Source: Thermotogaceae bacterium (GTDB lineage Bacteria; Thermotogota; Thermotogae; B21-G9; HyVt-16). Taken from it: a DNA stretch of 64,000 nt. The DNA is taken from NCBI GenBank assembly GCA_029981435.1, contig JARRBB010000002.1:1042-65041 (forward strand), written 5' to 3'. Below, in pieces: positions 37,354 to 53,146 of the stretch. Positions within the stretch are counted from its first letter, which is position 1; every line of letters starts with the position of its first letter. Below the pieces are notes generated by a model that saw nothing but the letters and a program-made list of their open reading frames with translations, was not told the DNA's origin and searched no databases. Position numbers and translations under genes: made by a program.

Positions 37354-37358
37354 ATTTT

Positions 37359-37387
37359 AACCAGGTGGGGTTTGACCTCACCTGGTT
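37359..37387 (+). promoter_or_regulatory. intercistronic stem-loop between the binding-protein and permease genes
   Basis: aaccaggtg-gggtttgacct-cacctggtt forms a 9-bp stem. Confidence 0.55.
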
Positions 37388-37406
37388 AAATAATTTTTAT
37401 GGTGGG

Positions 37407-39121: not shown

Positions 39122-39164
39122 ATTACGTTTCTATACTAACGTTCTAAAGCTTCTAATTACTCGT

Positions 39165-39193
39165 TTGCATACAATTCGGGGGTATGGTATAAT
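39165..39193 (+). promoter_or_regulatory. candidate promoter of the Mbx/Ehr-like operon (TTGCAT-17 nt-TATAAT, extended TG)
   Basis: TTGCAT at 39165-39170 and TGgTATAAT at 39185-39193 with a 17-nt spacer. Confidence 0.55.
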
Positions 39194-39257
39194 TTTGGCG
39201 AATTATTGTTAATTATTTCACCTTATATGTACATAAATATTTTGAAGGGGTGATTTT

Positions 39258-39740
39258 ATGTTTTTTTCGGTGTTTATTGTGACATTTTTCACTTGGCTAA
39301 TTTTGACTAACAGTCTTGAGCCATCTGAAGTTGTAATCGGTTTGATAGTTTCGATAGTTGTTTCCACTACTTTTACCAGATATTATTCGATAAAATTTGA
39401 TTGGAAACTTCCAGTTAGAATTTTGAGGTTCGTTTTCATTTATCTACCAGTTTTTATATGGGAAATGATAAAAGCAAATCTTGATGTTGCAGTAAGAGTA
39501 CTTAATCCCTCTCTACCTCTTAACCCAGGATTTGTAAAAGTAAAAACATCTTTAAAAGGTAAGAATTCTAAGCTTGCACTTGCAAATTCTATCACACTAA
39601 CTCCCGGAACTCTGACTCTTGACGTGAAAGATGAAGAATTATACATTCATTGGGTCGATGTAAAAGCAACTTCTGAAGAGCAGAAACAAAAACACATAAC
39701 AACGAAATTTGAAAAGATTTTAAAGAAAATCTTTGAATAA
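39258..39740 (+). CDS. Na+/H+ antiporter subunit E-like (MrpE/MnhE; MbxA-like)
   Basis: A 160-aa protein with MnhE-like N-terminal transmembrane helices. It is the first gene of the operon. Confidence 0.75.
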   Translation: MFFSVFIVTFFTWLILTNSLEPSEVVIGLIVSIVVSTTFTRYYSIKFDWKLPVRILRFVFIYLPVFIWEMIKANLDVAVRVLNPSLPLNPGFVKVKTSLKGKNSKLALANSITLTPGTLTLDVKDEELYIHWVDVKATSEEQKQKHITTKFEKILKKIFE

Positions 39741-39791
39741 CTCAGATTTGAAGGGAGGTGTAGTTGTTCCTAAGAGGAACAACATTGAGCC

Positions 39792-40049
39792 ATGAGTATT
39801 TTAAGCTACCTGTTTTTTGGCCTAATTGGCTTGGGAGTAATTTTAGCATTTTTACGCATGATACTTGGTCCTACGAGTGCCGATAGATTAGCAGCTTTAG
39901 ATATGCTGAATATTATACTAACAGGAACAATAGCAATCCTTGCTTTGACTTTCAACAATGGTTTGTATCTGGACATTGCATTGGTGTATGGACTATTATC
40001 TTTCGTTGAAACTATCGTGATAGCAAGATATCTGGAGGCGAAAAAATGA
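39792..40049 (+). CDS. MrpF/MnhF-like subunit (MbxB-like)
   Basis: An 85-aa protein with three transmembrane helices, in the MrpF position. Confidence 0.7.
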   Translation: MSILSYLFFGLIGLGVILAFLRMILGPTSADRLAALDMLNIILTGTIAILALTFNNGLYLDIALVYGLLSFVETIVIARYLEAKK

Positions 40050-40384
40050 GTATAATCGGCTATTTACTGATAATCATCGGAGCTTTTTTTTATTTTCTTG
40101 GTGGTCTCGGTATGTTTAGAATGCCAGATGTATACAACAGGCTTCAGGCTGGTACCAAAGCAACAACCCTCGGAAGTTTTTCAACGCTGTTAGGAGTTGG
40201 ACTGGTCAATCCAGCATTTCTCGGAAAGGCTTTACTCATAATAGCTTTTATAGCTTTAACAAATCCCGTTGGAAGTTCGGTACTTGCCAGAGCAGCTTAT
40301 CTTAAAGGTGTAAAACCAACCTCCAAAACCGTTGTTGATGAATATGCCGACGAAGCAACAAAAAAGGCAGGTGAAGAACAATGA
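40046..40384 (+). CDS. MrpG/MnhG-like subunit (MbxC-like)
   Basis: A 112-aa MnhG-like protein (GGLGMFRMPDVYNRLQAGTKATTLG). Its start overlaps the upstream gene as ATGA. Confidence 0.75.
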   Translation: MSIIGYLLIIIGAFFYFLGGLGMFRMPDVYNRLQAGTKATTLGSFSTLLGVGLVNPAFLGKALLIIAFIALTNPVGSSVLARAAYLKGVKPTSKTVVDEYADEATKKAGEEQ

Positions 40385-40620
40385 CGGCAGCAACGATATT
40401 CGTGGGAATACTTATGGTGATTTCAGGTATACTTGCCATTGAATCAAAAAAGCTTCTTGACTCTTTCATATTCCTCTCTCTTTTAAGCCTTTTATCGGTT
40501 TTCTTATTCATTGTCCTGAAAGCTCCAGATGTTGCCATAACTGAGGCTTCGGTTGGTGCTGGTCTTGTGACAGCTGTGTTAATACTCGCCCTTAGAAAAA
40601 TAGGGGGGGATGAAAAGTGA
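40381..40620 (+). CDS. small membrane subunit (MbxD/MbhD-like, MrpB-N/DUF4040-like)
   Basis: A 79-aa protein with two to three transmembrane helices, overlap-coupled to its neighbours. Confidence 0.6.
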   Translation: MTAATIFVGILMVISGILAIESKKLLDSFIFLSLLSLLSVFLFIVLKAPDVAITEASVGAGLVTAVLILALRKIGGDEK

Positions 40621-41345
40621 GAAGATTTCTTTCAGCGTTGATTGCCCTTGGTTTAATAATAATTCTCCTGGAATTTTTGAATCTTATACCTGATTTTGGA
40701 AATGTTGACCTTTCAAAACGTGTTTCAAATAGTTTTATCAACAAATCTGTCGATGGAAATAACGAAACGATAGAATTTAAAAAATCCAAAGATCTGGAAG
40801 ACGGTTCTGCAAATGTTGTCACATCTATTGTTGTTAATTACAGATCTTTTGATACTCTTGGAGAAGTGACGGTACTTTTTACGGCAGCCTTGGGTGTTGG
40901 GTTGATTCTTAAAGGCCTAAGAAGAAAAAGATTTTACCGAGAACCTAATTTTATCCTTAAAACGGCAAATGGAATACTTTTACCCCTGATATTTTTGTTT
41001 GGTGCATATATTTTCATACACGGGCATTTAACACCTGGGGGCGGATTCCCTGGTGGAACTATTATTGCTGCCGGAATATTAGTTTTATACCTTTCAAATG
41101 AAAAGTTCGAACTCTCTCATAGAGCTAAAATCCTTGAAAGTGGCATGGGAACAGTTTACGTACTGTTTGGATTAGTTGGGTTGATATTGAGTGGGATATT
41201 CTTAAGGAATTTTCTCCCAACAGGTGTTATTGGTGAATTGTTCAGTGCGGGTATCGTTCCTCTGATCTATGTGGCTATAGGCTTTAAAGTTGGTGCAGAG
41301 TTATCCAACTTGATTTCCGAGTTTCAAAAGGAGGGACAACAGTGA
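40617..41345 (+). CDS. MrpB/MnhB-domain membrane subunit (MbxF-like)
   Basis: A 242-aa protein with a GTG start and a MnhB-like C-terminal transmembrane domain. Confidence 0.65.
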   Translation: MRRFLSALIALGLIIILLEFLNLIPDFGNVDLSKRVSNSFINKSVDGNNETIEFKKSKDLEDGSANVVTSIVVNYRSFDTLGEVTVLFTAALGVGLILKGLRRKRFYREPNFILKTANGILLPLIFLFGAYIFIHGHLTPGGGFPGGTIIAAGILVLYLSNEKFELSHRAKILESGMGTVYVLFGLVGLILSGIFLRNFLPTGVIGELFSAGIVPLIYVAIGFKVGAELSNLISEFQKEGQQ

Positions 41346-41677
41346 TTTACTATATATCTATAATACTCATTGGTATTGGAGTTTATGGTTTACTTTCCCA
41401 AAAAAATCTTTTTAAGCATTTGATTTCTCTGGCTTTGATCGATACTGCGATTAATCTTTTTATAGTTTCTACAGGATACATTAATGGAAAAGAGGCACCT
41501 ATATATTCTGAATTTACTCCGATAGCTAATTTTGTTGATCCTCTACCTCAGGCTCTTGTTTTGACTGCGATAGTCATAGGTGTTGGAGTTTTAGCACTTG
41601 GAGCTGCGATGCTTATAAAAATCAAAGAAAAATATGGAACATTGAACGTGGAAGAGATAAGGAGGGGAGATAAATGA
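41342..41677 (+). CDS. MrpC/NuoK-like subunit (MbxG-like)
   Basis: A 111-aa protein with three transmembrane helices and a NuoK/MnhC pattern. Confidence 0.7.
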   Translation: MIYYISIILIGIGVYGLLSQKNLFKHLISLALIDTAINLFIVSTGYINGKEAPIYSEFTPIANFVDPLPQALVLTAIVIGVGVLALGAAMLIKIKEKYGTLNVEEIRRGDK

Positions 41678-43026
41678 TCTCTCTTATGATAGCAATTCCG
41701 CTTTTATTCGCATTTGTATCTATAGTTTTTAAAGGGTTGGCAAAATATGCTTTGCCTTTTATAGTTCTGCTGAACATATTGATTCTATTGATAGCATCAA
41801 CTCCCGTTGTTGAAAACATAGGTGGTTGGAAGGCACCTTTTGGTATTTCACTCGTTCTTGATGACGCGAGTTACTACGTGGTTTTGGTTGTTAATCTGAT
41901 TTTTCTTTTACTCTCTTTAATTCCTCAGATAATTGACAAAGGATATGACACGATTATTCTTTTACTTCTGACATCGACGAATGGTTTGGTACTAACTGGT
42001 GATCTTTTCAATTCTTTTGTTTTTATTGAAATCACAGCCGCAGCTGCTTACATTCTTGCGTATCACAGAAACAACCCTTACGGTGCTTTCAAATACCTTA
42101 TCATAGGTGGAATATCGGGAAGTTTTTATCTCCTTGGAACGATCTTTTCATATGTAGGTGCTGGCTCTTTAAACATGGCACATATATCCAATAATTCTTT
42201 TGGACAGTTAACAGCTGCCATCGCGATCTTGTTTATACTTGGGCTTGGAGTAGAGGCAAAATTGTTTCCATTGGCTGGATGGGTCCCAGATGTATACGCT
42301 TCAGGTTCATCATTAACTCCAACAATACTCGGAACAGCTATTACTTTTGCGATAATGTATCTAACAGGAAGAATATTCATAACAGTTTTACACGGTACCT
42401 TCTTGGATGTGCTGTATATCCTTGGACTTTTAACCGTGATAGTTGGTGAAGTTGCCGCTTTGAGACAAGATAAACTTTTAAGAGCTCTTGCTTACTCGTC
42501 TATCGCACAAGCAGGTTTAGTTGTTGCAGCTATTTCTTTAAACAACATTGATAGTCTAACAGGTGCGTATTTTCATTCGATGAACGACTTAACAGCTAAA
42601 TTCATCTTATTCCCAATAGCAACTGTTGTTATAAAAGGATTTGAAAAAGATAGATTAGCTGGGTTTGCATTTTCTGTCGCATCTTTTTCATTGATAGGTT
42701 TTCCTCTTTTTGCTGGATTTAGAAGTAAACTGTTGATAATCTCCAGTGCTTTTTCGGCAGGAAATTATATACTTCCAGCAGTACTGTTTTTTGCAAGTAT
42801 AGTGGAAGCAGCTTACTTGCTGAAATGGAACATAAAACTATGGTTCGAAAAATCCGATACTTCCAACAACATTCCCTGGAATTTAAAAACAATCGTTCTT
42901 GTACTTTCAATTCTGCTGCTAATTATTGGCATATATCCTGATCTGTATCTTGATGCATCAAGAAAAATAGCACAGTCAATTCTCGATACACAGGGTTACA
43001 TTAACTCTGTACTGGGAGGGATATAA
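41674..43026 (+). CDS. MrpD/NuoN-like proton-conducting antiporter subunit (MbxH-like)
   Basis: A 450-aa protein with about 14 transmembrane helices in the NADH-ubiquinone/plastoquinone complex I antiporter-like family. Confidence 0.75.
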   Translation: MISLMIAIPLLFAFVSIVFKGLAKYALPFIVLLNILILLIASTPVVENIGGWKAPFGISLVLDDASYYVVLVVNLIFLLLSLIPQIIDKGYDTIILLLLTSTNGLVLTGDLFNSFVFIEITAAAAYILAYHRNNPYGAFKYLIIGGISGSFYLLGTIFSYVGAGSLNMAHISNNSFGQLTAAIAILFILGLGVEAKLFPLAGWVPDVYASGSSLTPTILGTAITFAIMYLTGRIFITVLHGTFLDVLYILGLLTVIVGEVAALRQDKLLRALAYSSIAQAGLVVAAISLNNIDSLTGAYFHSMNDLTAKFILFPIATVVIKGFEKDRLAGFAFSVASFSLIGFPLFAGFRSKLLIISSAFSAGNYILPAVLFFASIVEAAYLLKWNIKLWFEKSDTSNNIPWNLKTIVLVLSILLLIIGIYPDLYLDASRKIAQSILDTQGYINSVLGGI

Positions 43027-44856
43027 ATGAGCCAACTTTTGTTGATATTATTTATAGGTAGTTTTCTTGTGTATCTTTTAACACGAATGAACTGGATTAT
43101 TGGAGTACTTGCTAACATTGGATTAGCTATCTATTCTTTTTATAGACTTTTCACATTTAAAGTTGGAACTTCGGAAAGTATCTTTTCTTTGATAGTCAAT
43201 CAAAATGGTACTCTTGTCTACTCAGAGCTTTCAAAGTTCTTTGGAATAATTAGTTTGATAGTCGCTATATCAGTATATTTTTTCCTTATAAACTGGTTGG
43301 AAAAACAAAAAAATCGTGCGGTATTTAATTTCTTTTTAGCCCTTATAACTGCTTCAACGCTCGGGGTTTTTTTCTCGGGAGATTTGCTAACATTATATAT
43401 TTTCTGGGAAATAATGCTTCTCTTCTCTGTTCTATTAGTTCAAATGGGGAAAGAAGATTCAAAAAAAGCAGCACTAAATTATCTAACTATAAGCTTAATA
43501 GGAAGCTACATGTATCTATACGCTGTTTTCATGCTTTGGAATAGATATGGAACATTGGTTATAAAGGACATCGTTCAAAAGATTTCAGTTGAAACATCAA
43601 TTTTCAAGTGGGCAGTACTAATTCTCATAGCTGCTGCTGGAATTGCGAAAAGTGGTATCTTTCCTCTTCATACGTGGCTTCGAACAACTCAAGGTTCTTC
43701 TCCTGATGCATTTAGTGCTATCCTGGCTGGTCAGTTAGAAAAACTCGGGGCTTATATGCTTGTACTTACAGTTGCAGTATTTCCAAGTCTGAAAATGTTC
43801 CCAGTCTTGTACGGTGGAATACCTGTATTCAATTATGTGTTAATTGTTTTAGGTATGATATCTATCTTAATAGGAACACTTATGGCAATAAAACAAAATG
43901 ACATGAAAATGCTTATTGCATACTCGACTGTTTCCAACAGTGGCTACATACTTATAGGGTTAGCTACCATGGATAAAATTGGATTCGCTGGCGGATTATT
44001 TCATGCGTTTAATCACGCTATTGCGTCAGTAATGATTTTTCTATCTTTTGCGGCGGTAATTTACAGAACAAAAACATCCAAAATCGATGAGATGGGCGGA
44101 TTGATTTGGAAAATGCCTTTGACCTTTATAACCTACTTGGTTGGAATAATCTCCCTCGCTGGTATCCCGCCTATGAGTGGATTTATTTCCAAATGGATGA
44201 TATTCGTTGTGCTGGTTAAAAAAGGCATGTTTTTGACTGCAGCTGCTGCATTCATAGGTAGTGTTGGATCTTTCTTGTATGTCTTTAGACCGCTCGCAGG
44301 TGTCTTTTTAGGACAATTGAAGAGTAAACATAAAGATGTCAAAGAAGTTCCAATATTCATGTTGATACCGATGCTCGTATTGGTAGTAATAACAGTATTT
44401 TTTGGAGTTATTCCTGGACCTGTTCTTAACATGATAACTGCCGTAGAGAAAGAGCTTAACATTCAACCACTTGAACACACCATGACAGTTATAAAATCCT
44501 CCGTTGGGCAATGGAATACATTAACCGTATTCACAATGTTTGCTGTTGGCTTCATAATTGCTTTCATACTCTATATGGTGTTTCCAAAAGCTAAGAGAAT
44601 ACCTCTTACAAATCAATATACAGCTGGCGAGTTTCTCTATAACTACGATTTGTATCATTATTCAACCAGATTTTATGCCTTTTTTGAACGACTATATGAA
44701 AAACACCCTTCAGTTGAAAAACTTTACGAAATGTTTGGAAAATTTTTCAAAGATATTGGAGAATTTCTGAATAGATGGTTTTATTCCGCAAGTCCAAGCG
44801 CTTATCTGTTGTGGTTTTCAATAGTACTATTAGCAATATTCTGGGTGAGGTGGTAA
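43027..44856 (+). CDS. MrpA/NuoL-like antiporter-type subunit (MbxH'-like)
   Basis: A 609-aa second antiporter-like subunit (WLRTTQGSSPDAFSAI... TFITYLVGIISLAGIPPMSGFISKW). Confidence 0.75.
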   Translation: MSQLLLILFIGSFLVYLLTRMNWIIGVLANIGLAIYSFYRLFTFKVGTSESIFSLIVNQNGTLVYSELSKFFGIISLIVAISVYFFLINWLEKQKNRAVFNFFLALITASTLGVFFSGDLLTLYIFWEIMLLFSVLLVQMGKEDSKKAALNYLTISLIGSYMYLYAVFMLWNRYGTLVIKDIVQKISVETSIFKWAVLILIAAAGIAKSGIFPLHTWLRTTQGSSPDAFSAILAGQLEKLGAYMLVLTVAVFPSLKMFPVLYGGIPVFNYVLIVLGMISILIGTLMAIKQNDMKMLIAYSTVSNSGYILIGLATMDKIGFAGGLFHAFNHAIASVMIFLSFAAVIYRTKTSKIDEMGGLIWKMPLTFITYLVGIISLAGIPPMSGFISKWMIFVVLVKKGMFLTAAAAFIGSVGSFLYVFRPLAGVFLGQLKSKHKDVKEVPIFMLIPMLVLVVITVFFGVIPGPVLNMITAVEKELNIQPLEHTMTVIKSSVGQWNTLTVFTMFAVGFIIAFILYMVFPKAKRIPLTNQYTAGEFLYNYDLYHYSTRFYAFFERLYEKHPSVEKLYEMFGKFFKDIGEFLNRWFYSASPSAYLLWFSIVLLAIFWVRW

Positions 44857-44858
44857 GA

Positions 44859-45740
44859 ATGACCATATTTAAAGTCGCAGCGGTATTGTTAACTGGTTTC
44901 TTTGTTGGTTTGACTCTTGAAGGAATTGCAAGAAAAATAATCGCCAGAGTTCAGAGAAGGTATGGACCGCCTTGGTATCAGAATTTCATAGATGTGTTCA
45001 AAGCACTTTCAAAACATGGGTTTTCACATGGATGGATATTCGATTTTGGAGTCTTGATGGCTCTTGGTGGGGTTATAGCAACTCTTTCTTTCGTGCCGCT
45101 TGGAAATCTTGTTGCATTTCCAGGACTTGATAATGTTTTTGTAGTATTGTATTTGTTTGCTGTTGGAGCACTTGGTATGGCTATGGGAATGGTCGGTTCG
45201 GGCAATCCCAATGCCTCGATAGGTGTTGCAAGAGCACTTACCCAGATGCTTGGATACGAAGTCCCTTACCTTGTAAGCTTAGCGGCAATTATTTTCTATT
45301 ACAAAACTTCTTCTATAAGTAATCTTATGAACCTGCAAGCTGATAGTTGGAACCTTTTTAAGATGCCAATAGGTGCAGCGGTTGCTTTCATATCTTTAAT
45401 GGGAATGCTCGGAAAAAAACCTTTCGACACACCAATTGCTCCGGCTGAAATAGCTTCAGGGCCGATGGTAGAATTGTCCTCAAAGTACATGGGACTTTTA
45501 ATGTTGATGCATACGTTTTCAATATTCGTAGAAATTTCCCTGTTTGTTGACATATTTCTTGGCGGTGGAAGTTATTTAGTATTTCTTTTAAAGTTCACAG
45601 TAGTGTGGATCATAGCAACGTTGATATCGGCTGTACTGCCACGTTTTAGAATAGAACAGGTTGTAAAATTCTACTGGCGTGTTCCTCTTGGCTTAGCATT
45701 TCTACAAGCATTTTTTGTGTTAATAGGATGGGTCTTTTAG
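44859..45740 (+). CDS. NuoH/MbhM-like membrane subunit (MbxM-like)
   Basis: A NuoH-family membrane subunit (KIIARVQRRYGPPWYQNF... ). The ATG at 44859 follows GAGGTGG. The ORF-track start at 44775 lies inside the upstream gene. Confidence 0.75.
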   Translation: MTIFKVAAVLLTGFFVGLTLEGIARKIIARVQRRYGPPWYQNFIDVFKALSKHGFSHGWIFDFGVLMALGGVIATLSFVPLGNLVAFPGLDNVFVVLYLFAVGALGMAMGMVGSGNPNASIGVARALTQMLGYEVPYLVSLAAIIFYYKTSSISNLMNLQADSWNLFKMPIGAAVAFISLMGMLGKKPFDTPIAPAEIASGPMVELSSKYMGLLMLMHTFSIFVEISLFVDIFLGGGSYLVFLLKFTVVWIIATLISAVLPRFRIEQVVKFYWRVPLGLAFLQAFFVLIGWVF

Positions 45741-45752
45741 GAGGTGCCTGTG

Positions 45753-46292
45753 ATGAGCTATGAAAGAACTATTTGGGAGAAGATAGCTGACAATCTTAGA
45801 AGCAGATCTATGTGGATGCTTCATTATTGTACTGGATGTGGTGCTGTTGAACTACCACCTTCCATGACTTCAAGGTTCGATATGGAAAGGCTTGGTATGG
45901 GCCCAATGGCCACTCCAAGACAAGCTGACATATTTTTAATAACCGGATACCTAAGCGTTAAAACTTTACGAAGAGTTATATACACTTACGAACAAATGCC
46001 AGATCCAAAATACGTTGTTGGTTTTGGTTCATGTACAATCAACGGAGGAATTTACTATGATTCTTATGCAACGATAAATAGAGTAGATTATTACATACCA
46101 GTGGATCTATACATTGCGGGTTGTATGCCAAGACCTGAAGCAATTTTTGAAGCATTTACAGAACTTATGAGAATGATAAGAAAAGGTGAGGCAATAGGCT
46201 GGAAAAAATACAAGGAAAACTACGAATGGTATAAGCAAAATCAGCTTAAGTCCCTCGGGGAGGTGTATGTCCATGATGAATTCCATGAATGA
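45753..46292 (+). CDS. NuoB / [NiFe]-hydrogenase small-subunit-like protein (MbxJ-like) retaining four Cys for a [4Fe-4S] cluster
   Basis: Four Cys residues (HYCTGCGAVE...GFGSCTINGG...YIAGCMPRPE) can coordinate a [4Fe-4S] cluster. The ATG at 45753 follows AGGAGG. Confidence 0.8.
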   Translation: MSYERTIWEKIADNLRSRSMWMLHYCTGCGAVELPPSMTSRFDMERLGMGPMATPRQADIFLITGYLSVKTLRRVIYTYEQMPDPKYVVGFGSCTINGGIYYDSYATINRVDYYIPVDLYIAGCMPRPEAIFEAFTELMRMIRKGEAIGWKKYKENYEWYKQNQLKSLGEVYVHDEFHE

Positions 46293-46803
46293 CTTGTTGG
46301 AAGAACTTAAAAAACTGTTTGGAAACTTCGAAGTACAGGAAATAGATGAAAGAGAAGTAAAAATAGACGTTGAATCAGATAAAGTGGTTGGAATATTAAC
46401 AACCTTAAAAAGCAAAGGATACTCCCATTTATCACTCTTGACATGTGTTGACTGGATTAATGAGAACAAATTCGAACTTATTTATATCCTTTATTCTTGG
46501 CAAAATGGTTGCAAATTCATTGTTGCTACATGGATAGAAAGAAAGAACCCGAAATTTGTAACCGTTATGAATTTATGGCCAGTTGCAAGATTTTACGAAA
46601 GGGAAATACACGAATTTTTTGGTGTTGAATTTGAAGGTAACGATGATATGAAACCACTTATACTGGAACTTTGGGACGACATACCACCTTTGAGGAAAGA
46701 TTTTGACCCGCTTGAATATTCTAAAAAGAAATTCCCTGGAAGACAGTATGATAAAGATGTGATTCAAGAAGCTTTGATCTTCAGAGGTGATAAAAATGGG
46801 TGA
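46267..46803 (+). CDS. NuoC-like 30-kDa subunit (MbxK-like)
   Basis: LSLLTCVDW...WPVARFYEREIHEFFGVEFEG is characteristic of NuoC. Confidence 0.75.
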   Translation: MSMMNSMNDLLEELKKLFGNFEVQEIDEREVKIDVESDKVVGILTTLKSKGYSHLSLLTCVDWINENKFELIYILYSWQNGCKFIVATWIERKNPKFVTVMNLWPVARFYEREIHEFFGVEFEGNDDMKPLILELWDDIPPLRKDFDPLEYSKKKFPGRQYDKDVIQEALIFRGDKNG

Positions 46804-47899
46804 AGTGAAACTTTTCTTTGGTCCAAATCATCCAGGGATGCATGGTAATTTTTCGGTTCATCTGTATGTTGAAGGAGATACAGTTGTAAAGGCAAAACCA
46901 CTTCCTGGTTTTCTTCATAGAGGTTTTGAAAAACTTATGGAAAGAAGAACATGGTTTCAAAACGTTGCACTTATACCTCGTATATGCGTCCCAGAACCTG
47001 ATATAAATGAAGTTTGCTATTCAATGGCAATTGAAAAAATAGCAAAAATTGATGTTCCAGAAAGAGCCCAGTGGATAAGGATGATCGTACTTGAACTTGC
47101 CAGAATAGCCAACCACCTTTGGAGTTTTGCAGGAATAGGAGGCCCCTTAGGACTGTATACTGGCCCATTTTGGGGTGTCGCTGATAGAGATAGAATACTG
47201 GACATCTTTGAACAGCTCACCGGTGCGCGTATTTATCATATGTACATAATACCTGGCGGAGTTAGAAAAGAAATGCCATCAAAGATACAGGATATGATAT
47301 CTCAAACTCTTGATTATATTGAATCAAGGCTACCCGATTACGAAAACTTGATTCTTAGAAACAGGATAGTTCAAACTCGTTTAAAAGGTATTGCACTTCT
47401 TGATAGAGAATCCGCACTTACAATGGGAGTAACCGGCATAGGTTTGAGAGCTACAGGTGTTCCATATGACCTAAGAAAGGTTGACCCATATCTTTACTAT
47501 AACTATGTTGATTTTGAGGTGCCAACAGCCACAGAAGGAGATGCTTATTCAAGGATTAAACTGAAATACTTGGAGATAAAGCAAAGCATAAGGATAATTA
47601 GACAAGTTCTGGAGAAGATGCCAGAAGGTCCAATCAACACGAAATTCAGTGATGGGAATGCTCTGAGATATAGAGTACCCAAAGGTTATGCATATGTCCA
47701 TGTCGAGGCTACAAGAGGTGAATACGGTTACTTCGTTGTTTCGAATGGTGAAGATAAACCATATAGGGTTACTGTAAGAGGCGCATCGTATCCTCAAGGA
47801 CTGTATGGTATAGAAAAGTATTTACCAGGCACAAGAATAGAAGATGTACCGATTTGGCTTGATACTATGGGTGTTTGTGCTCCTGAAATAGACAGATAA
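46796..47899 (+). CDS. NuoD / [NiFe]-hydrogenase large-subunit-like protein lacking both CxxC Ni-Fe ligand pairs (MbxL/Ehr-type)
   Basis: The N-terminal motif is RICVPE instead of RxCGxC, and the C-terminal motif is DTMGVCAPEIDR instead of DPCxxCxxH/R. Each motif therefore has one Cys plus Glu (CxxE). The ATG at 46796 follows GAGGTGA. Confidence 0.75.
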   Translation: MGEVKLFFGPNHPGMHGNFSVHLYVEGDTVVKAKPLPGFLHRGFEKLMERRTWFQNVALIPRICVPEPDINEVCYSMAIEKIAKIDVPERAQWIRMIVLELARIANHLWSFAGIGGPLGLYTGPFWGVADRDRILDIFEQLTGARIYHMYIIPGGVRKEMPSKIQDMISQTLDYIESRLPDYENLILRNRIVQTRLKGIALLDRESALTMGVTGIGLRATGVPYDLRKVDPYLYYNYVDFEVPTATEGDAYSRIKLKYLEIKQSIRIIRQVLEKMPEGPINTKFSDGNALRYRVPKGYAYVHVEATRGEYGYFVVSNGEDKPYRVTVRGASYPQGLYGIEKYLPGTRIEDVPIWLDTMGVCAPEIDR

Positions 47900-47914
47900 C
47901 GGAGGTGCTGTGAA

Positions 47915-49729
47915 ATGGAAAAAAGTTTTTTTGCCCCGGTTAAAGCATGGAAATTTCTATTTGAAAAACCAGTTACTATAAAAGTACCGAAAGAAAAAAG
48001 AAAGGCGAGTGAAAGGTATAGAGGTTTCCACATAAACGATTGGGACAAGTGTATAGGCTGCGGAACCTGTTCAAAAGTTTGTCCTACCGATGCAATACAG
48101 ATGGTAGAAGTTCCCGTTCTGGAAAAAAAGTTTGGTGAAAAACCTCAAAGACCCTCGATAGATTATGGACGTTGTTCATTCTGTGCAATGTGTGTTGATA
48201 TATGTACAACTGGTTCTTTGCAGATGACACGTGAATATGTTCATCTATCATCTCAACCAGAAGCCTTCATTTTCGTACCAACTGAAAAAGGAATAAAAAA
48301 TGTTGAGAACGTTGAAATAGGCTGGATAAAAGACGAAGATTCTGAATTGCTTGAACTTGAACGTGTCGAAATGGAAATGATAGAAGCAGAGGAAAGAGTG
48401 AAGTCGTTTATAGAATACGTAAAAGGTTACAGCAAAGAACAGGCAATACATGAAGCTGCAAGGTGCGTTGAGTGTGGAATATGTACTGATAGATGTCCTG
48501 AACATATGGATATCCCTGAATACATAAAATCCATCTGGCTTGATGATCTTGAAGAAGGCTTAAGATGGCTTTACAAAACAAACCCATTGTCATCTGTTTG
48601 TGGAAGAGTTTGTACCCATAGATGTGAAGAAGTATGTGCTATATCCAACAGAGGAGAGGCAGTGGCAATAAGATGGTTGAAAAGATACATAGTTGATAAT
48701 GTACCCTCTGAAGATTATATGAAGATTTTGAATTTTAATCCCAAGCCGAAAGAAGAAAGAATAGCTATCGTCGGTTCTGGACCAGCGGGACTTTCTGCGG
48801 CATATTTTCTGGCAACTATGGGATACAAAGTTGATATTTTCGAATCCTTGGCAAAACCTGGTGGTGTTATGAGATACGGTATCCCAAGGTACAGACTTCC
48901 TGATGAAGCACTCGATAAAGATATTGCTTTAATACAGGCACTTGGGGTTAGAATATTCACAAACACAACAATTGGAAAAGATATAAAGTTGGAAGAATTA
49001 AAAGAAAAATATGATGCAATTTTTGTCTCCACTGGATTCACACTTGGTCGTTCAACTGGTGTTCCTGGCACTGACCATCCTAAGGTTGTACAAGCACTTC
49101 CGTTGCTAAAAGATATAAGAGATTACTTGAGAGGCGAAGCTCCAAAGCCTGAAATACCAGAAACTCTTGTGGTAATAGGTGGAGGAAATGTTGCAATGGA
49201 TGTGGCGAGAAGTGTTGCAAGACTTCAGAAGATGGAATATGGAAAGGTCAATGTAAAACTTGCATGTCTTGAAAGAAATTTTGAAGAAATGCCAGCGGAT
49301 ATGGAAGAAATTATTGAAGGAAAAGAAGAAGGTGTAGAATTTTATCCCGGTTGGGGTCCTATAAGAATCATGATAGAAAAAGATGAAATAAAAGGTGTCG
49401 AATTTCAAAAGTGCCTGGAAGTTTTCGATTCAGATGGTAAGTTCAACCCAAAATTCGATGCTAATAACAAGATGATACTCCAAGGCGACATGGTTGTTGA
49501 AGCAATTGGACAGGCACCTGATTACTCTTATCTTCCAGAGGAAATAAAGTCTAAATTGCAATTTATAAGAGGAAGAATCCTGACAAACGAATACAGGCAA
49601 ACAGATATTCCATGGTTGTTTGCGGGAGGTGATATTGTTAACGGCCCAGATATCATACATGGCGTTGCAGATGGCTACTGGGCTGCTCGAGGTATAGATG
49701 ATTATTTATCAAGTAAAGAAAGGAGTTGA
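47915..49729 (+). CDS. fusion protein: 2x[4Fe-4S] ferredoxin (NuoI/MbhN-like) plus GltD/NfnB/SudA-like NAD(P)H-dependent FAD oxidoreductase
   Basis: Residues 1-130 carry CIGCGTCSKVCP and CSFCAMCVDICT. These are followed by RCVECGICTDRCPE and CGRVCTHRCEEVC, an FAD-binding IAIVGSGPAGLSAAYFLA and an NAD(P)H-binding VVIGGGNVAMDVARS. Confidence 0.8.
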   Translation: MEKSFFAPVKAWKFLFEKPVTIKVPKEKRKASERYRGFHINDWDKCIGCGTCSKVCPTDAIQMVEVPVLEKKFGEKPQRPSIDYGRCSFCAMCVDICTTGSLQMTREYVHLSSQPEAFIFVPTEKGIKNVENVEIGWIKDEDSELLELERVEMEMIEAEERVKSFIEYVKGYSKEQAIHEAARCVECGICTDRCPEHMDIPEYIKSIWLDDLEEGLRWLYKTNPLSSVCGRVCTHRCEEVCAISNRGEAVAIRWLKRYIVDNVPSEDYMKILNFNPKPKEERIAIVGSGPAGLSAAYFLATMGYKVDIFESLAKPGGVMRYGIPRYRLPDEALDKDIALIQALGVRIFTNTTIGKDIKLEELKEKYDAIFVSTGFTLGRSTGVPGTDHPKVVQALPLLKDIRDYLRGEAPKPEIPETLVVIGGGNVAMDVARSVARLQKMEYGKVNVKLACLERNFEEMPADMEEIIEGKEEGVEFYPGWGPIRIMIEKDEIKGVEFQKCLEVFDSDGKFNPKFDANNKMILQGDMVVEAIGQAPDYSYLPEEIKSKLQFIRGRILTNEYRQTDIPWLFAGGDIVNGPDIIHGVADGYWAARGIDDYLSSKERS

Positions 49730-49733
49730 TATC

Positions 49734-50231
49734 ATGGCTTTAAGTGATATTCTCGATATTGCTGAAAAATTTGAGATAGAAGGCTATAACTTCTATAAAT
49801 CAAAGAGAGATGAAATAAGAAGTTCCACAGCAAAAGAAACGTTTGATTTTCTTGCTAATATGGAAAAAGAACATACCGAATACATAAGAAGAGTAAAAGA
49901 AAAAATTGAAAATGTTGAAGTAGTTGAAACCAATGACTCTGAAACTACAGAAGAGTTTTTTGAAAAAAGGTTAAAATCTCAAAAGCTCGATGAATCTTTT
50001 TCGAAAGAAAACGATCTCGCTGACCTATCCATTTTAAGAATGGCGCTTTTGATTGAAAAAGATTTCGTAAATTATTACGCCAAAGCATATGAAACTACCG
50101 TTGACGAAAAGGCAAAAAAAATCTTCAAAATGTTGAAAAACTGGGAAGAACAGCATGTAAAATTGGTAGAAGAACTCATAAAAGAAATTTATGACAGAAA
50201 CAGACTTGACTTAGGTTTTTATCCTTTCTAA
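49734..50231 (+). CDS. ferritin-like/rubrerythrin-like diiron-fold protein (no rubredoxin domain)
   Basis: E-x-x-H-like helices (NMEKEHTEYI; NWEEQHVKLVEE) are present. The ATG at 49734 follows AGGAG. It is the last gene of the operon, just before a terminator. Confidence 0.55.
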   Translation: MALSDILDIAEKFEIEGYNFYKSKRDEIRSSTAKETFDFLANMEKEHTEYIRRVKEKIENVEVVETNDSETTEEFFEKRLKSQKLDESFSKENDLADLSILRMALLIEKDFVNYYAKAYETTVDEKAKKIFKMLKNWEEQHVKLVEELIKEIYDRNRLDLGFYPF

Positions 50232-50253
50232 TTTAAACCTGATTGAATATTTT

Positions 50254-50286
50254 GGCGGGCATCACGAGATGCCCGCTTTATTTTTT
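50254..50286 (+). terminator. rho-independent terminator
   Basis: The stem ggcgggcatc/gatgcccgc (loop acga) is followed by TTTATTTTTT. Confidence 0.8.
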
Positions 50287-50427
50287 ATGAATTATCTTGA
50301 GGGGTTGATTCCATATCTGTACAAGCTTGAAAAATAGATTGCCACTTTCTGTTTACTTTTTTGAAAATTTGCTTTATAATTTCTTTAATAAAGTTCGAAC
50401 TCTTTCAAATTTCAAGGAGGACTGTTT

Positions 50428-52200: not shown

Positions 52201-52214
52201 AAAGAAGCCTGATT

Positions 52215-53135
52215 TTGTTTTCAGTAATCCTGATAACAAGTATTTTTATATTAATCCAGAGTTTGAGTAGAGTTGAAATAAGTTTCTATCCTCCAAAACA
52301 TTATTATGTGAATGAAATTGTAGAGATAAAAATAAGTCCGATTCGTTTAGCTTTTTCAGTAAGAGTTTTCAACGGGAACAAAATAGAGGAAAAAGTGAAA
52401 AATGGAAAACTTGATTTGTTTGTTAGAGTTTATCGAAAAACGGAGATTCTGATTTTCAGCTTGATACCTTTGAAGTTAATAAAATTCGAAATACCCTATC
52501 ATGAGGATTACACCGATGATAATTCAAATGGGTTCCCTGATGTATTAGAACTAGATTACAGTGATTCAATTAATTTCAGAAACTGGTTCCTTGAGATTTC
52601 GAAAAGTCAATTTGCAAAGAAATCAAATTTGTGGAAAGATAGGGATTGTTCTGGTTTAATAAGGTTTGCCTATAAAGAAGCCTTAAAAAAACATGATGAA
52701 AACTGGGAAAAAAACTCCGATTTCGTACATCATTCTTCTATTCAGAAACCAGATGTAAAAAAATACAATTATCCCGATATTCCACTCATCGGTACTAAGA
52801 TTTTCAAAATATTGGACTTTGAGTTCGGAGTTTTTGCTGATGCATATCATCTTTTGAAATACAACGTTGATTTTGTTTCAAAAGACTACAAAAAGGCAAA
52901 ATCGGGAGATATTCTTTTTTTCTATCATCCTTCATCTGTAGATATGCCATATCATTCGATGATATATACCGGAGATGGTTTGCTTTATCATACAGGACCT
53001 ATAGAAGATAAAGAAGGCGAATTACGTTATTTAAAGCTCGAGGATGTACTCAAAAATTTTCCTCTGGATTGGCAACCATTGCCATCGAACAACAAATTTC
53101 TCGGTTTTTTCAAATTTAAAATATTGAGTTACTGA
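52215..53135 (+). CDS. hypothetical exported protein, possibly DUF1175/YfaT-like (Cys/His-containing)
   Basis: It has an N-terminal signal anchor, and the motifs DCSGLIRFAYKEAL and YHSMIYTGDGLLYHTGP. The TTG start has no clear ribosome-binding site. The family assignment is from memory. Confidence 0.4.
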   Translation: MFSVILITSIFILIQSLSRVEISFYPPKHYYVNEIVEIKISPIRLAFSVRVFNGNKIEEKVKNGKLDLFVRVYRKTEILIFSLIPLKLIKFEIPYHEDYTDDNSNGFPDVLELDYSDSINFRNWFLEISKSQFAKKSNLWKDRDCSGLIRFAYKEALKKHDENWEKNSDFVHHSSIQKPDVKKYNYPDIPLIGTKIFKILDFEFGVFADAYHLLKYNVDFVSKDYKKAKSGDILFFYHPSSVDMPYHSMIYTGDGLLYHTGPIEDKEGELRYLKLEDVLKNFPLDWQPLPSNNKFLGFFKFKILSY

Positions 53136-53146
53136 GAGGTGAAAAT

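What the first reader, a model, noticed from the sequence alone, without database searches (positions are those of the whole stretch)
47915..49729. The ferredoxin subunit of the complex is fused to a GltD/NfnB/SudA-like NAD(P)H flavoprotein
A single 604-aa ORF joins the 2x[4Fe-4S] NuoI/MbxN-type module to a full glutamate-synthase-small-subunit-like module with two further Cys clusters plus FAD and NAD(P)H Rossmann motifs. A covalent link between the peripheral arm and a pyridine-nucleotide-dependent flavoprotein suggests NAD(P)H is the direct soluble electron donor or acceptor. This would be a different way of coupling pyridine nucleotides to ion pumping than Rnf or the NuoEFG module. I vaguely recall similar fusions being noted in Thermotogae, so it may not be new, but the function has not been tested.
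Basis: seen in the sequence. Interest (0 to 1): 0.65.

Follow-up and report, generated by a model that had tools for sequence, protein, structure and literature searches.

The report
Flavoprotein-fused subunit of bacterial sulfur-reductase-type complex
The 604-residue gene is real and intact: it is the known, widespread but biochemically untested bacterial form of the last subunit of an MBS/Mbx-type ion-pumping membrane complex, in which the iron-sulfur 'wire' subunit is permanently fused to an NADH-type flavoprotein.

Summary
Observation confirmed. Window 47915-49729 (+) is one uninterrupted 604-aa ORF. It joins a MbsN/NuoI-like 2x[4Fe-4S] module, a conserved 35-residue linker, and an NfnB/GltD-like module with 2x[4Fe-4S], FAD and a NAD(H) site.

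It is the 13th gene of a 14-gene MBS/Mbx-type operon (39258-50231). Its L and J subunits carry the sequence signatures of the Pyrococcus sulfane-sulfur reductase MBS.

The fusion is not new. It matches the curated NCBIfam equivalog NF010590/PRK13984 end to end. It is 69% identical to the Thermotoga maritima protein. The substitution was described in print in 2015. At least 598 matching stretches were found in genomes of more than ten phyla, nearly always in the same operon position.

This analysis adds three points.
- All 16 cluster cysteines are invariant in 86 sequences.
- The NADPH 'YRR' motif is replaced by a near-invariant Leu-Glu, as in NADH-dependent PreT, so NADH is predicted rather than NADPH.
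- A diiron ferritin-like protein is a recurrent 14th partner, either encoded downstream or fused.

The most likely function is a reversible NADH-linked sulfane-sulfur reductase that pumps ions. This is inferred, not shown. No biochemical study was found.

The parts
39164..39193 (+). promoter-like site upstream of the first operon gene (TTTGCA-18-TATAAT with TG)
   Evidence: Best-scoring sigma-70-like match in the region. This is a consensus match only; the overall count did not exceed the shuffles.
39258..39740 (+). mbxA, MrpE/MnhE-like membrane subunit
   Evidence: NCBIfam TIGR00942 1.4e-46. A PF01899 gene holds the same position in related loci.
39792..40049 (+). mbxB, MrpF-like
   Evidence: NF009246 at 134.8 bits, above its cut-off of 92.
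40046..40384 (+). mbxC, MrpG-like
   Evidence: NF009314 and TIGR01300, both above cut-off.
40381..40620 (+). mbxD, MbhD-like small membrane subunit (79 aa)
   Evidence: A hydrophobic ORF fills the gap. A PF13244 MbhD gene holds the same position in L003-L005. There are tblastn hits in many loci.
40617..41345 (+). mbxF, MbhE + MnhB domains
   Evidence: Pfam PF20501 and PF04039; NF009217 6.4e-53.
41342..41677 (+). mbxG, MrpC/NuoK-like
   Evidence: NF005621 2.5e-28.
41674..43026 (+). mbxH, MrpD/NuoN-like antiporter-type subunit
   Evidence: NF006241 1.7e-77.
43027..44856 (+). mbxH', second MrpD/NuoM-like antiporter-type subunit (609 aa)
   Evidence: NF006419 at 800.6 bits, above its cut-off of 617, over the full length.
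44775..45740 (+). mbxM, NuoH-like. The listed start overlaps mbxH' by 82 nt, so the true start may lie further downstream.
   Evidence: NF004741 1.3e-32. A PF00146 gene holds the same position in related loci.
45744..46292 (+). mbxJ, NuoB-like subunit carrying the proximal [4Fe-4S] cluster, of the MBS type
   Evidence: Best PDB hit is MbsJ 6u8y_J at 1.9e-70, against MbhJ at 1.2e-29. The alignment is gapless through the CxxC loop, C97 and C127. The three ligand Cys are conserved 60/60; the fourth Cys only 51/60.
46267..46803 (+). mbxK, NuoC-like
   Evidence: NF004736 3.4e-29.
46787..47899 (+). mbxL, NuoD-like subunit descended from a [NiFe]-hydrogenase large subunit, without the Ni-binding CxxC pairs
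   Evidence: Best PDB hit is MbsL 6u8y_L at 7.1e-114 over the full length, against MbhL at 2.7e-43. It keeps only the two vestigial Cys, in RICVPEPD and C-A-P-E-I-D-R.
47915..48256 (+). fusion protein aa 1-114: MbsN/NuoI-like 2x[4Fe-4S] module
   Evidence: Best PDB hit is MbsN 6u8y_N at 7.2e-30 (aa 3-114), against MbhN at 1.7e-12. Pfam finds Fer4 twice. The 8 Cys are invariant.
48257..48364 (+). fusion protein aa 115-150: conserved linker
   Evidence: No stop or frameshift. P122, L146, L148 and R150 are invariant across phyla. Block-mean pLDDT over aa 111-150 is 83-90 in a model with pTM 0.84.
48365..48706 (+). fusion protein aa 151-264: Fer4_20 domain with two further [4Fe-4S] sites
   Evidence: PF14691 2.7e-29. 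It aligns to NfnB 4ylf_B from aa 154. The 8 Cys are invariant.
48707..49729 (+). fusion protein aa 265-604 plus stop: FAD and NAD(H) Rossmann domains
   Evidence: PF07992. Foldseek best hit is NfnI-L 5jca_L, with TM 0.89 normalised to the target. E453 replaces the Arg of the NADPH motif.
49734..50231 (+). ferritin/rubrerythrin-like protein with two ExxH motifs and no rubredoxin domain; probable 14th subunit
   Evidence: PF02915 1.1e-9. AAGGAG lies 8 nt before the ATG at 49734. The homologue is downstream or fused in 38 of the 78 loci with room.
50254..50287 (+). intrinsic-terminator-like hairpin with T-tract ending the operon
   Evidence: 10-bp stem with 7 GC pairs, followed by TTATTTTTTA.

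Best explanation
The ORF encodes the N subunit of a bacterial MBS/Mbx-type membrane complex. The complex has 13 core genes plus a ferritin-like 14th gene. Its membrane arm is derived from an Mrp antiporter, and its peripheral arm resembles that of complex I.

In this lineage the 2x[4Fe-4S] 'wire' subunit (MbsN/NuoI-like) is permanently fused, through a conserved and structured linker, to an NfnB/GltD-type flavoprotein. That flavoprotein carries FAD, two more [4Fe-4S] clusters and a dinucleotide site whose signature is of the NADH type.

**Proposed mechanism.**
1. NADH gives a hydride to FAD.
2. FAD feeds single electrons into the two Fer4_20 clusters.
3. The electrons pass to the two MbsN-type clusters.
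4. They reach the proximal cluster of MbxJ, which appears from sequence to have only three Cys ligands, as in MBS.
5. A sulfane-sulfur/polysulfide S-S bond is reduced at the J/L/M interface.
6. That redox step drives Na+/H+ translocation by the H, H' and Mrp-like subunits.

The reaction is probably reversible.

**Shown.** The ORF is intact. The domain and motif content is as stated. The gene order and its conservation are established. The L and J subunits carry MBS-type sequence features.

**Inferred.** Cofactor occupancy, NADH as substrate, electron continuity between the two halves, the sulfur acceptor and ion pumping.
For: **Architecture and integrity.**

**The fusion is an ancient fixed architecture.** The full-length match to NF010590 scores 1157 bits. 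Full-length homologues occur in Thermotogota, Fusobacteriota, Chloroflexota, Spirochaetota and Bacillota. A genome scan found at least 598 confirmed stretches. The best 80 loci span Mycoplasmatota, Bacteroidota, Bipolaricaulota, WOR-3, Marinimicrobia and alpha-, gamma- and delta-proteobacteria.

**Synteny.** The gene lies about 1.1 kb after the start of the NuoD-like gene, with the full A-L gene set upstream, in nearly every locus with enough flank.

**MBS type.**
- MbxL matches MbsL at 7e-114 and keeps the two vestigial Cys.
- MbxJ matches MbsJ at 1.9e-70 without gaps through the shortened CxxC loop.
- Across 60 family members the three MbsJ ligand Cys are invariant. The Cys equivalent to the non-ligand C25 is replaced by Gly in 9.
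- This is what the MBS structure paper reports for a 3-Cys catalytic cluster (PMC7684303).

**NADH.**
- E453 lies three residues after the strand 447-450 that follows GGGNVA and is Glu in 84 of 86 sequences.
- It aligns with an Arg of the 'YRR' motif in NfnB, NfnA, StnA, Xfn and E. coli GltD, which are NADPH-type or annotated as such where characterised.
- The NAD+-dependent E. coli PreT has Glu in that column.

**Physiology.** T. maritima mbxA is induced 4.4-fold by elemental sulfur (PMC9431562).
Against: - No enzyme assay exists for any member of this family in the library searched.
- The NADH-to-polysulfide span is only about 50-60 mV (textbook midpoint potentials). That is small for a complex with two antiporter-type pumps, although P. 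furiosus MBH conserves energy with about 12 kJ per 2 e- (PMC8165549).
The distance between the Fer4_20 clusters and the MbsN-type clusters could not be measured.
- Many hosts (Izemoplasmatales, Christensenellaceae, Bacteroidales) are not known sulfur reducers.
- The flavoprotein is closest to bifurcating Nfn large subunits, so a simple two-electron to one-electron converter role is not the only option.
- Three gammaproteobacterial loci carry the fusion without mbx genes within 10 kb.
Confidence: 0.55

Rival explanations
1. Ferredoxin:NAD(P)+ oxidoreductase. This is the older 'Mbx' model. Reduced ferredoxin enters at an Fe-S cluster, and the flavoprotein is the exit where NAD(P)+ is reduced. 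The membrane arm pumps ions, so the complex is a functional analogue of Rnf.
For: Genome papers assume this reading (Mesotoga preprint; Caldanaerobacter paper). [quoted passage not shown] The ferredoxin-to-NAD+ span is larger than the NADH-to-sulfur span. Nfn-type large subunits do exchange electrons with ferredoxin through the same two clusters (PDB relatives).
Against: Electrons would run only within the distal part of the peripheral arm. They would never reach the J/L/M interface, which is the coupling site in all complex-I relatives (PMC7684303, PMC8165549). Yet the catalytic-site signatures of MbxJ and MbxL are strictly conserved. The P. furiosus enzyme on which the model was based turned out to be a sulfane-sulfur reductase. 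Many hosts also have Rnf.
Confidence: 0.2
2. Flavin-based electron bifurcation or confurcation. The NfnB-like FAD splits the NADH electron pair. One electron goes down the chain to the membrane-arm acceptor. The other goes to a second partner, either ferredoxin or the diiron ferritin-like subunit. Run in reverse, the enzyme would combine ferredoxin and a second donor.
For: The closest solved relatives by sequence and fold are all large subunits of bifurcating Nfn/Stn enzymes: 4ylf_B, 5jca_L, 9n5u_A and 8oh5_C. A second redox protein, the ferritin-like one, is genetically tied to the flavoprotein and is fused to it in spirochaetes.
Against: No NfnA/S-type [2Fe-2S]-FAD partner is encoded in the operon. 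About half of the loci lack the ferritin-like gene. The fused versions have lost its metal ligands. GltD, DPD and PreT have the same fold and do not bifurcate. No sequence feature diagnostic of bifurcation was tested.
Confidence: 0.12
3. NADH-dependent peroxide/oxygen detoxification module. The flavoprotein plus the diiron rubrerythrin-like protein reduce H2O2 or O2, either protecting the complex or acting on their own. The link to the membrane complex is secondary.
For: The rubrerythrin family match and the two conserved ExxH motifs. The two-gene unit occurs without neighbouring mbx genes in L071 and L083. Degli Esposti suggested a radical-quenching role.
Against: The ferritin-like gene is absent from about half of the loci, including the Thermotoga locus examined (L005, Thermotoga sp. 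CP000969). The flavoprotein always retains the MbsN-type module and its position after mbxL. This reading does not explain the fusion itself.
Confidence: 0.08
4. Artefact or mis-annotation. Either the ORF is two genes joined by a sequencing error, or it is an ordinary soluble glutamate-synthase small subunit, as several databases name it.
For: JGI and NCBI source names read 'glutamate synthase (NADPH/NADH) small chain'.
Against: An identical sequence is on record on 17 contigs. The 86 sequences aligned (the window protein plus relatives from the 85 loci examined) keep all 16 cluster cysteines, which span both modules. The linker is conserved. GltD models score far below cut-off: TIGR01317 at 200 against 447.7, and TIGR01318 at 260.5 against 482.95. 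There is no gltB neighbour.
Confidence: 0.01

Closest known systems
Thermotoga maritima Mbx 'N' subunit (P0027, 'oxidoreductase'; NCBIfam NF010590 / PRK13984 'putative oxidoreductase')
   Same: It has the same fused architecture end to end and is 69% identical. It holds the same position as the last core gene of the mbx operon, next to a sugar ABC transporter.
   Different: The Thermotoga locus examined (L005) lacks the ferritin-like gene that follows here. Neither protein has been characterised biochemically.
Pyrococcus furiosus MBS (membrane-bound sulfane-sulfur reductase, PDB 6U8Y)
   Same: It has the same 13-gene set in the same order (mbxA-D, F-H, H', M, J-L, N). The L, J and N subunits are the best PDB matches (7e-114, 1.9e-70 and 7e-30). 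The vestigial Cys pair in L and the shortened CxxC loop in J are shared.
   Different: MbsN is a stand-alone 208-aa protein, and ferredoxin is the donor. Here N is fused to a 450-residue FAD/NAD(H) flavoprotein with two extra clusters. Only MbsN residues 18-123 align. A ferritin-like 14th gene is present here.
NfnB / NfnI-L, large subunit of NADH-dependent ferredoxin:NADP+ oxidoreductase (PDB 4YLF_B, 5JCA_L)
   Same: It is the best sequence match (4.7e-79) and the best fold match (TM 0.89 normalised to the target, rmsd 2.4 Å) for aa 150-604. It has the same 2x[4Fe-4S] + FAD + dinucleotide layout.
   Different: No NfnA/S partner is encoded here. The 'YRR' NADPH motif is replaced by 'LE'. The N-terminus is fused to a complex-I-type ferredoxin subunit.
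NuoEFG (N-module) of respiratory complex I
   Same: In function, both would attach a flavin-based NADH dehydrogenase to the NuoI-NuoB cluster chain of a complex-I-type enzyme.
   Different: The proteins are unrelated. NuoF uses FMN and has a different fold. No NuoE, NuoF or NuoG homologue is in this operon. Here the flavoprotein is FAD-dependent, of the GltD family, and covalently fused to the NuoI homologue.
E. coli PreT (NAD+-dependent dihydropyrimidine dehydrogenase subunit) and GltD
   Same: They belong to the same flavoprotein family. PreT shares the Glu in the column of E453.
   Different: They are soluble partners of PreA and GltB respectively. They have no NuoI-type module, and GltD has Arg at that column.
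Rnf complex
   Same: Both could couple pyridine-nucleotide redox chemistry to Na+/H+ translocation in the same organisms.
   Different: The subunits are unrelated, and Rnf couples ferredoxin to NAD+ through flavins in membrane subunits. The comparison rests on function only.

Membership tests
NCBIfam NF010590 (PRK13984, 'putative oxidoreductase', equivalog) | Whole-protein score above the curated cut-off (946 bits) with end-to-end coverage of the model | tested here: met
   1157.1 bits; protein 2-601 against model positions 8-609 of 611.
MBS/Mbx-type complex (P. furiosus MBS, 6U8Y) | Thirteen-gene cluster mbxA-D, F-H, H', M, J-L, N: Mrp-like genes followed by NuoH/B/C/D/I-like genes | tested here: met
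   Genes at 39258-49729 lie in that order. The same order is found in L003-L005 and most of the 80 genome loci.
MBS/Mbx-type complex (P. furiosus MBS, 6U8Y) | The L subunit lacks the two Ni-binding CxxC pairs but keeps two vestigial Cys (MbsL C85, C385) | tested here: met
   The alignment to 6u8y_L shows a single Cys in RICVPEPD and a single Cys in C-A-P-E-I-D-R. The feature definition comes from PMC7684303.
MBS/Mbx-type complex (P. furiosus MBS, 6U8Y) | The proximal [4Fe-4S] of the J subunit is held by three Cys, because the CxxC loop is shortened and the first Cys is not a ligand | tested here: inconclusive
   The sequence is consistent. The alignment with MbsJ is gapless through the loop. 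The three ligand Cys are conserved 60/60 and the fourth only 51/60. The actual coordination needs a structure or spectroscopy.
MBS/Mbx-type complex (P. furiosus MBS, 6U8Y) | Stand-alone N subunit that accepts electrons from ferredoxin | tested here: not met
   Here N is fused to a flavoprotein. Ferredoxin use cannot be tested. On this point the protein is a variant of the family.
MBS/Mbx-type complex (P. furiosus MBS, 6U8Y) | Polysulfide/sulfane-sulfur reductase activity coupled to ion translocation | not testable with these tools
   The only indirect evidence is induction of T. maritima mbxA by S0 (PMC9431562).
NfnAB / NfnSL bifurcating transhydrogenase, large subunit | 2x[4Fe-4S] + FAD + dinucleotide fold of the large subunit | tested here: met
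   4ylf_B at 4.7e-79. 5jca_L with TM 0.89 normalised to the target.
NfnAB / NfnSL bifurcating transhydrogenase, large subunit | Partner small subunit (NfnA/S, [2Fe-2S] + FAD) encoded alongside | tested here: not met
   No such gene lies in 36085-53135. The rest of the genome was not available.
NfnAB / NfnSL bifurcating transhydrogenase, large subunit | NADPH site with the Tyr-Arg-Arg motif after the second strand | tested here: not met
   The motif is replaced by Leu-Glu (L452, E453), with Glu in 84 of 86 sequences.
Glutamate synthase small subunit (GltD; TIGR01317/TIGR01318) | Score above the curated cut-off, and a gltB partner gene | tested here: not met
   TIGR01317 scores 200.0 bits against a cut-off of 447.7, and TIGR01318 scores 260.5 against 482.95. 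No gltB neighbour is present.
NuoI of NADH:quinone oxidoreductase (TIGR01971) | Score above the cut-off, within an operon that has NuoA/J/K/L/M/N and (in NUO14) NuoEFG | tested here: not met
   91 bits against a cut-off of 113.05, and NF004543 at 121.9 against 243. The operon has Mrp-type subunits and no NuoE/F/G.

The most novel reading that the evidence does not exclude
The family is a quinone-independent, reversible NADH:sulfane-sulfur oxidoreductase. It would be a second, independently invented 'NADH input module' on a complex-I ancestor, with a diiron ferritin-like 14th subunit.

In fermenters such as this Thermotogaceae bacterium it would dispose of NADH on sulfur while pumping ions. In sulfur-storing chemoautotrophs (Thiodiazotropha, Sedimenticola, Thiomargarita, Chromatiaceae) it would run backwards. 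There the ion gradient would push electrons from sulfide/polysulfide up to NAD+ for CO2 fixation.
Probability: 0.12. Interest if true: 0.8.

Novelty: already known. Interest (0 to 1): 0.4.

Why it matters
The fusion is old news as a sequence feature. The enzyme it belongs to, however, is a widespread respiratory complex with no biochemistry behind it. At least 598 matching stretches were found in a scan of one genome per species, and the best 80 span more than ten phyla.

If the flavoprotein really delivers NADH electrons to an MBS-type catalytic cluster, three things would follow.
- It would be an independent solution to the step that turned ferredoxin-driven ancestors into NADH-driven complex I.
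- It would change energy budgets drawn for Thermotogota, Izemoplasmatales, spirochaetes and sulfur symbionts. In those groups the complex is currently drawn either as Fd:NADP+ oxidoreductase or as a ferredoxin-dependent sulfur reductase.
- The NADH-versus-NADPH prediction and the ferritin-like partner give concrete and inexpensive experiments.

Tried and rejected
**Frameshift or stop at the junction.** Rejected: the frame is continuous, identical copies exist and homologues are collinear.

**Ordinary GltD or NuoI.** Rejected: both score below the curated cut-offs and the partner genes are missing.

**Inter-cluster distances from the AlphaFold model.** Not possible. The model coordinates are not exposed to the script sandbox. 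Only pLDDT, pTM and secondary structure could be used.

**Literature on TM1217.** Only a gene table in a paper on the mal operon was found. Schut et al. 2013 is cited by others for bacterial Mbx but was not found among the search results from the library.

**Search for the closest unfused N subunits.**
- Of 29 clusters at E <= 1e-30, 13 are of fusion length.
- Several 'short' hits (P0121, P0124, P0139) proved to be truncated fusions.
- The ratio of fused to unfused forms could therefore not be quantified.
- P0122 and P0154 look like genuine stand-alone N subunits.

**Start of the ferritin-like gene.** The ORF-finder start at 49698, which overlaps the fusion by 32 nt, was replaced by ATG 49734, which has a perfect AAGGAG 8 nt upstream.

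**Diiron ligands of the ferritin-like family.** A test by column identity failed because of alignment offsets. Motif counting was used instead.

**Promoter scan.** The number of sites did not exceed the shuffles, so the promoter assignment is weak.
Full report
**1. The observation**

The window has one ATG-to-stop ORF at 47915-49729 on the + strand, 604 aa. The DNA across the proposed junction (48200-48460) reads through in one frame with no stop.

Pfam finds four features:
- two Fer4 motifs at aa 42-100;
- Fer4_20 at aa 161-264 (2.7e-29);
- Pyr_redox_2 at aa 282-582 (5.6e-27);
- NAD_binding_8 at aa 285-320.

A protein identical over all 604 residues is on record from 17 contigs, named 'MAG: Thermotogaceae bacterium'. 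Homologues of 53-87% identity cover 99-100% of the length. The ORF is therefore real and is not a sequencing artefact.

**2. Anatomy of the protein**

*N-module.* Residues 3-114 match the stand-alone N subunit of the Pyrococcus furiosus sulfane-sulfur reductase MBS best (6u8y_N, 7.2e-30). The hydrogenase MbhN (1.7e-12) and complex-I NuoI (about 1e-11 to 1e-16) match less well.

*Flavoprotein module.* Residues about 150-604 match the large subunits of Nfn-type transhydrogenases best. The hits are T. maritima NfnB 4ylf_B (4.7e-79), NfnA of NfnABC and P. furiosus NfnI-L, followed by GltD (1.7e-53) and dihydropyrimidine dehydrogenase.

*Model.* An AlphaFold2 model built on 64 family members has mean pLDDT 89.6 and pTM 0.84. 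Block-mean pLDDT over aa 111-150, which covers the linker, is 83-90. By Foldseek its best solved match is NfnI-L 5jca_L, with TM 0.89 normalised to the target and rmsd 2.4 Å.

*Linker.* Aa 115-150 contain residues invariant across phyla: P122, L146, L148 and R150. The linker is a structured part of the protein, not a loose tether.

*Conservation.* I aligned the window protein with 85 relatives taken from the genome and metagenome loci.
- All 16 cluster cysteines are invariant, 86 of 86.
- The glycines of the FAD motif (GSGPAG) and of the NAD motif (GGGNVA) are conserved: G287, G289, G422 and G424 in 86 of 86, and G292 in 80 of 86.
- The Glu that closes the FAD Rossmann strand (E310) is conserved in 83 of 86.
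- The GD of the C-terminal FAD motif is conserved in 84 of 86.

**3. NADH or NADPH**

In every solved relative that aligned over this stretch (NfnB, NfnA, StnA, the Caldicellulosiruptor NfnABC large subunit, Xfn), the strand after the GxGxxA motif ends in Tyr-Arg-Arg. By the usual Rossmann-fold rule, which is my own knowledge, these arginines hold the 2'-phosphate of NADPH.

The window protein has Cys-Leu-Glu-Arg there. The model places a strand at 447-450, immediately before it. L452 is conserved in 82 of 86 sequences and E453 in 84 of 86. The next position is variable and rarely basic.

In a direct alignment the E453 column holds Arg in NADPH-dependent E. coli GltD ('YRR'). It holds Glu in E. 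coli PreT ('ARE'), which RefSeq annotates as the NAD+-dependent dihydropyrimidine dehydrogenase subunit.

I therefore predict NADH rather than NADPH. This is an inference from sequence.

**4. The surrounding genes**

The ORF is gene 13 of a co-directional, tightly packed cluster at 39258-50231. The order is:
- MrpE-, MrpF- and MrpG-like genes;
- a 79-aa MbhD-like ORF;
- MbhE/MnhB;
- MrpC/NuoK-like;
- two MrpD/NuoN/M-like antiporter subunits;
- NuoH-, NuoB-, NuoC- and NuoD-like genes;
- the fusion;
- a ferritin/rubrerythrin-like gene.

No NuoE, NuoF or NuoG homologue is present.

A strong terminator-like hairpin follows at 50254-50277. The best promoter-like match lies at 39164-39193, but promoter-like sites were no more frequent than in shuffled sequence.

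The NuoD-like subunit matches MbsL at 7.1e-114 over its whole length, against 2.7e-43 for MbhL. It has a single Cys in each of the two places where hydrogenases have CxxC pairs. These are the positions of MbsL C85 and C385.

The NuoB-like subunit matches MbsJ at 1.9e-70 without a gap through the shortened CxxC loop. According to the MBS structure paper, that loop leaves the proximal cluster with three Cys ligands and one open, catalytic iron.

Across the family the three ligand cysteines are conserved in 60 of 60 sequences. The Cys equivalent to the non-ligand MbsJ C25 is Gly in 9 of 60. This is the pattern expected if that Cys is not a ligand here either.

By sequence, then, this is an MBS-type complex. 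The cluster coordination itself cannot be tested with these tools.

**5. Distribution**

The whole fusion is a curated NCBIfam equivalog, NF010590/PRK13984 'putative oxidoreductase'. The score is 1157 bits against a cut-off of 946, with end-to-end coverage.

Full-length homologues occur in the following:
- Thermosipho, Fervidobacterium, Petrotoga, Mesotoga and Tepiditoga;
- Thermotoga maritima MSB8 (69% identity);
- Haliovirga;
- MAGs labelled Anaerolineales, Clostridia and Spirochaetales.

The best 80 all match residues about 2-603. Their record titles add these groups:
- Kosmotogaceae, Mcinerneyibacterium, Izemoplasmatales, Halanaerobiales, Christensenellaceae and Peptococcaceae;
- Bacteroidales, Prolixibacteraceae, Marinimicrobia, WOR-3, Bipolaricaulota and Polyangiaceae;
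- Tropicimonas;
- many sulfur-oxidising gammaproteobacteria (Thiodiazotropha, Sedimenticola, Thiomargarita, Chromatiaceae).

In nearly every locus with enough upstream sequence, the gene starts about 1.1 kb after the start of the NuoD-like gene, with the whole A-L set upstream. In spirochaete-type loci the two halves of the operon are swapped.

There are three exceptions, L071, L075 and L083, with no mbx gene within 10 kb.

**6. What the literature says**

[quoted passage not shown] The paper proposed that this protein is the site of NAD(P)+ reduction, and noted that the operon 'often terminates with rubrerythrin' (PMC4758237).
- The T. maritima operon has long been discussed as a transfer from Thermococcales, and it lies next to mal1 (PMC2246101). 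A sugar ABC transporter lies next to the operon here too.
- Genome papers draw the bacterial complex as Fd:NADP+ oxidoreductase or as a ferredoxin-dependent sulfur reductase (PMC9431562).
- T. maritima mbxA rises 4.4-fold on sulfur.
- In the Riftia symbiont a 'putative Mrp-Mbx complex' is listed among complexes of unknown function or direction (PMC11636981).
- I found no enzymology or structure for any fused member. The PDB holds no full-length relative.

**7. Mechanism**

The best-supported reading is a single wire. It runs from NADH to FAD, then through two Fer4_20 clusters, two MbsN-type clusters and the proximal MbxJ cluster, to an S-S bond of polysulfide at the J/L/M interface. That last step drives the Mrp-type pumps.

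Reasons for preferring this to the Fd:NAD+ model:
- In complex-I relatives the coupling site is at the proximal cluster.
- The proximal-cluster signatures are strictly conserved in this family.
- The archaeal enzyme on which the Fd:NADP+ model was based is now known to reduce sulfane sulfur.

Weak points:
- The driving force from NADH to sulfur is small (textbook potentials), comparable to the roughly 12 kJ per 2 e- on which MBH runs.
- Continuity between the two cluster pairs could not be measured.
- Many hosts are not known sulfur reducers.
- The flavoprotein's closest relatives bifurcate electrons.

Ferredoxin may remain a second donor. I put the main reading at 0.55, Fd:NAD+ oxidoreductase at 0.2, bifurcation at 0.12 and a peroxide-detoxifying role for the flavoprotein/ferritin pair at 0.08.

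**8. The ferritin-like gene**

The ORF after the fusion matches Pfam Rubrerythrin (1.1e-9). It has two ExxH motifs 94 residues apart and no rubredoxin domain. Its likely start is ATG 49734, eight bases after a perfect AAGGAG and four bases after the fusion's stop.

An iterative profile search of the downstream ORFs and C-terminal tails covered the 78 related loci with room downstream.
- A homologue lies directly downstream in 28 loci.
- A homologue is fused to the C-terminus of the flavoprotein in 10 loci, mostly spirochaete-type.

All 29 separate copies, counting the window's, keep two or more ExxH motifs. Only 1 of the 10 fused tails does.

The recurrent adjacency and the gene fusion argue that this protein binds the flavoprotein. 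Its role is open.

**9. Verdict**

As a sequence feature the fusion is already known: it is curated, annotated in model organisms and described in print.

This analysis adds the NADH prediction, the family-wide MBS-type catalytic signatures, the breadth of distribution and the ferritin-like partner. The biological question of what this abundant complex does remains open and is now easy to test. I score interest at 0.4.

Noticed in passing
window 49734-50231 (ORF finder: 49698-50231): A ferritin/rubrerythrin-like gene with two ExxH motifs follows the fusion. It has its own Shine-Dalgarno sequence, and the operon terminator comes directly after it. Among the 78 related loci with room downstream, a homologue is encoded directly downstream in 28 and fused to the flavoprotein's C-terminus in 10. 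Separate copies always keep the metal-ligand motifs. Fused copies have almost always lost them.
   Followed up: partly
L071 9998-12298; also L075 and L083: In three gammaproteobacterial MAG loci (Thiotrichaceae, Thiomargarita and an unclassified one) the fusion gene has no mbx genes within 10 kb. In L071 and L083 the ferritin-like gene follows it directly. In L071 the neighbours are a polyprenyl synthetase, DUF945 and Mla transporter genes. The complex genes may lie elsewhere in the genome, or the pair may work alone.
   Followed up: partly
L001 4492-15691, L002, L011: In spirochaete-type loci the operon is permuted. The NuoH/B/C/D-like genes and the fusion come first, and the Mrp-like genes follow. 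The fusion protein is about 750 aa because of the degenerate ferritin-like tail.
   Followed up: partly
window 45744-46292 (MbxJ residue C29): The first Cys of the CxxC loop of the NuoB-like subunit is replaced by Gly in 9 of 60 family members. The other three Cys are invariant. This fits a three-Cys proximal cluster as in MBS.
   Followed up: yes
window 44775-44856: The listed start of the NuoH-like ORF overlaps the end of the preceding antiporter-like gene by 82 nt. The true start is probably further downstream.
   Followed up: no
window 36085-39121: A sugar ABC transporter (binding protein and two permeases) lies directly upstream of the operon. This recalls the mal1-mbx adjacency described for Thermotoga maritima.
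   Followed up: partly
window 50428-57547: Downstream of the operon lies an unrelated cluster: a DUF2207 membrane protein, a DUF1175/NlpC-P60 protein and a 1466-aa bacterial alpha-2-macroglobulin with MG2, A2M, TED and bMG10 domains.
   Followed up: no
P0121, P0124, P0139: Several database proteins of 175-228 aa look like stand-alone N subunits but are truncated copies of the fusion. They end inside the linker or the Fer4_20 domain. Counts of 'unfused' forms taken from protein lengths alone would be inflated.
   Followed up: partly
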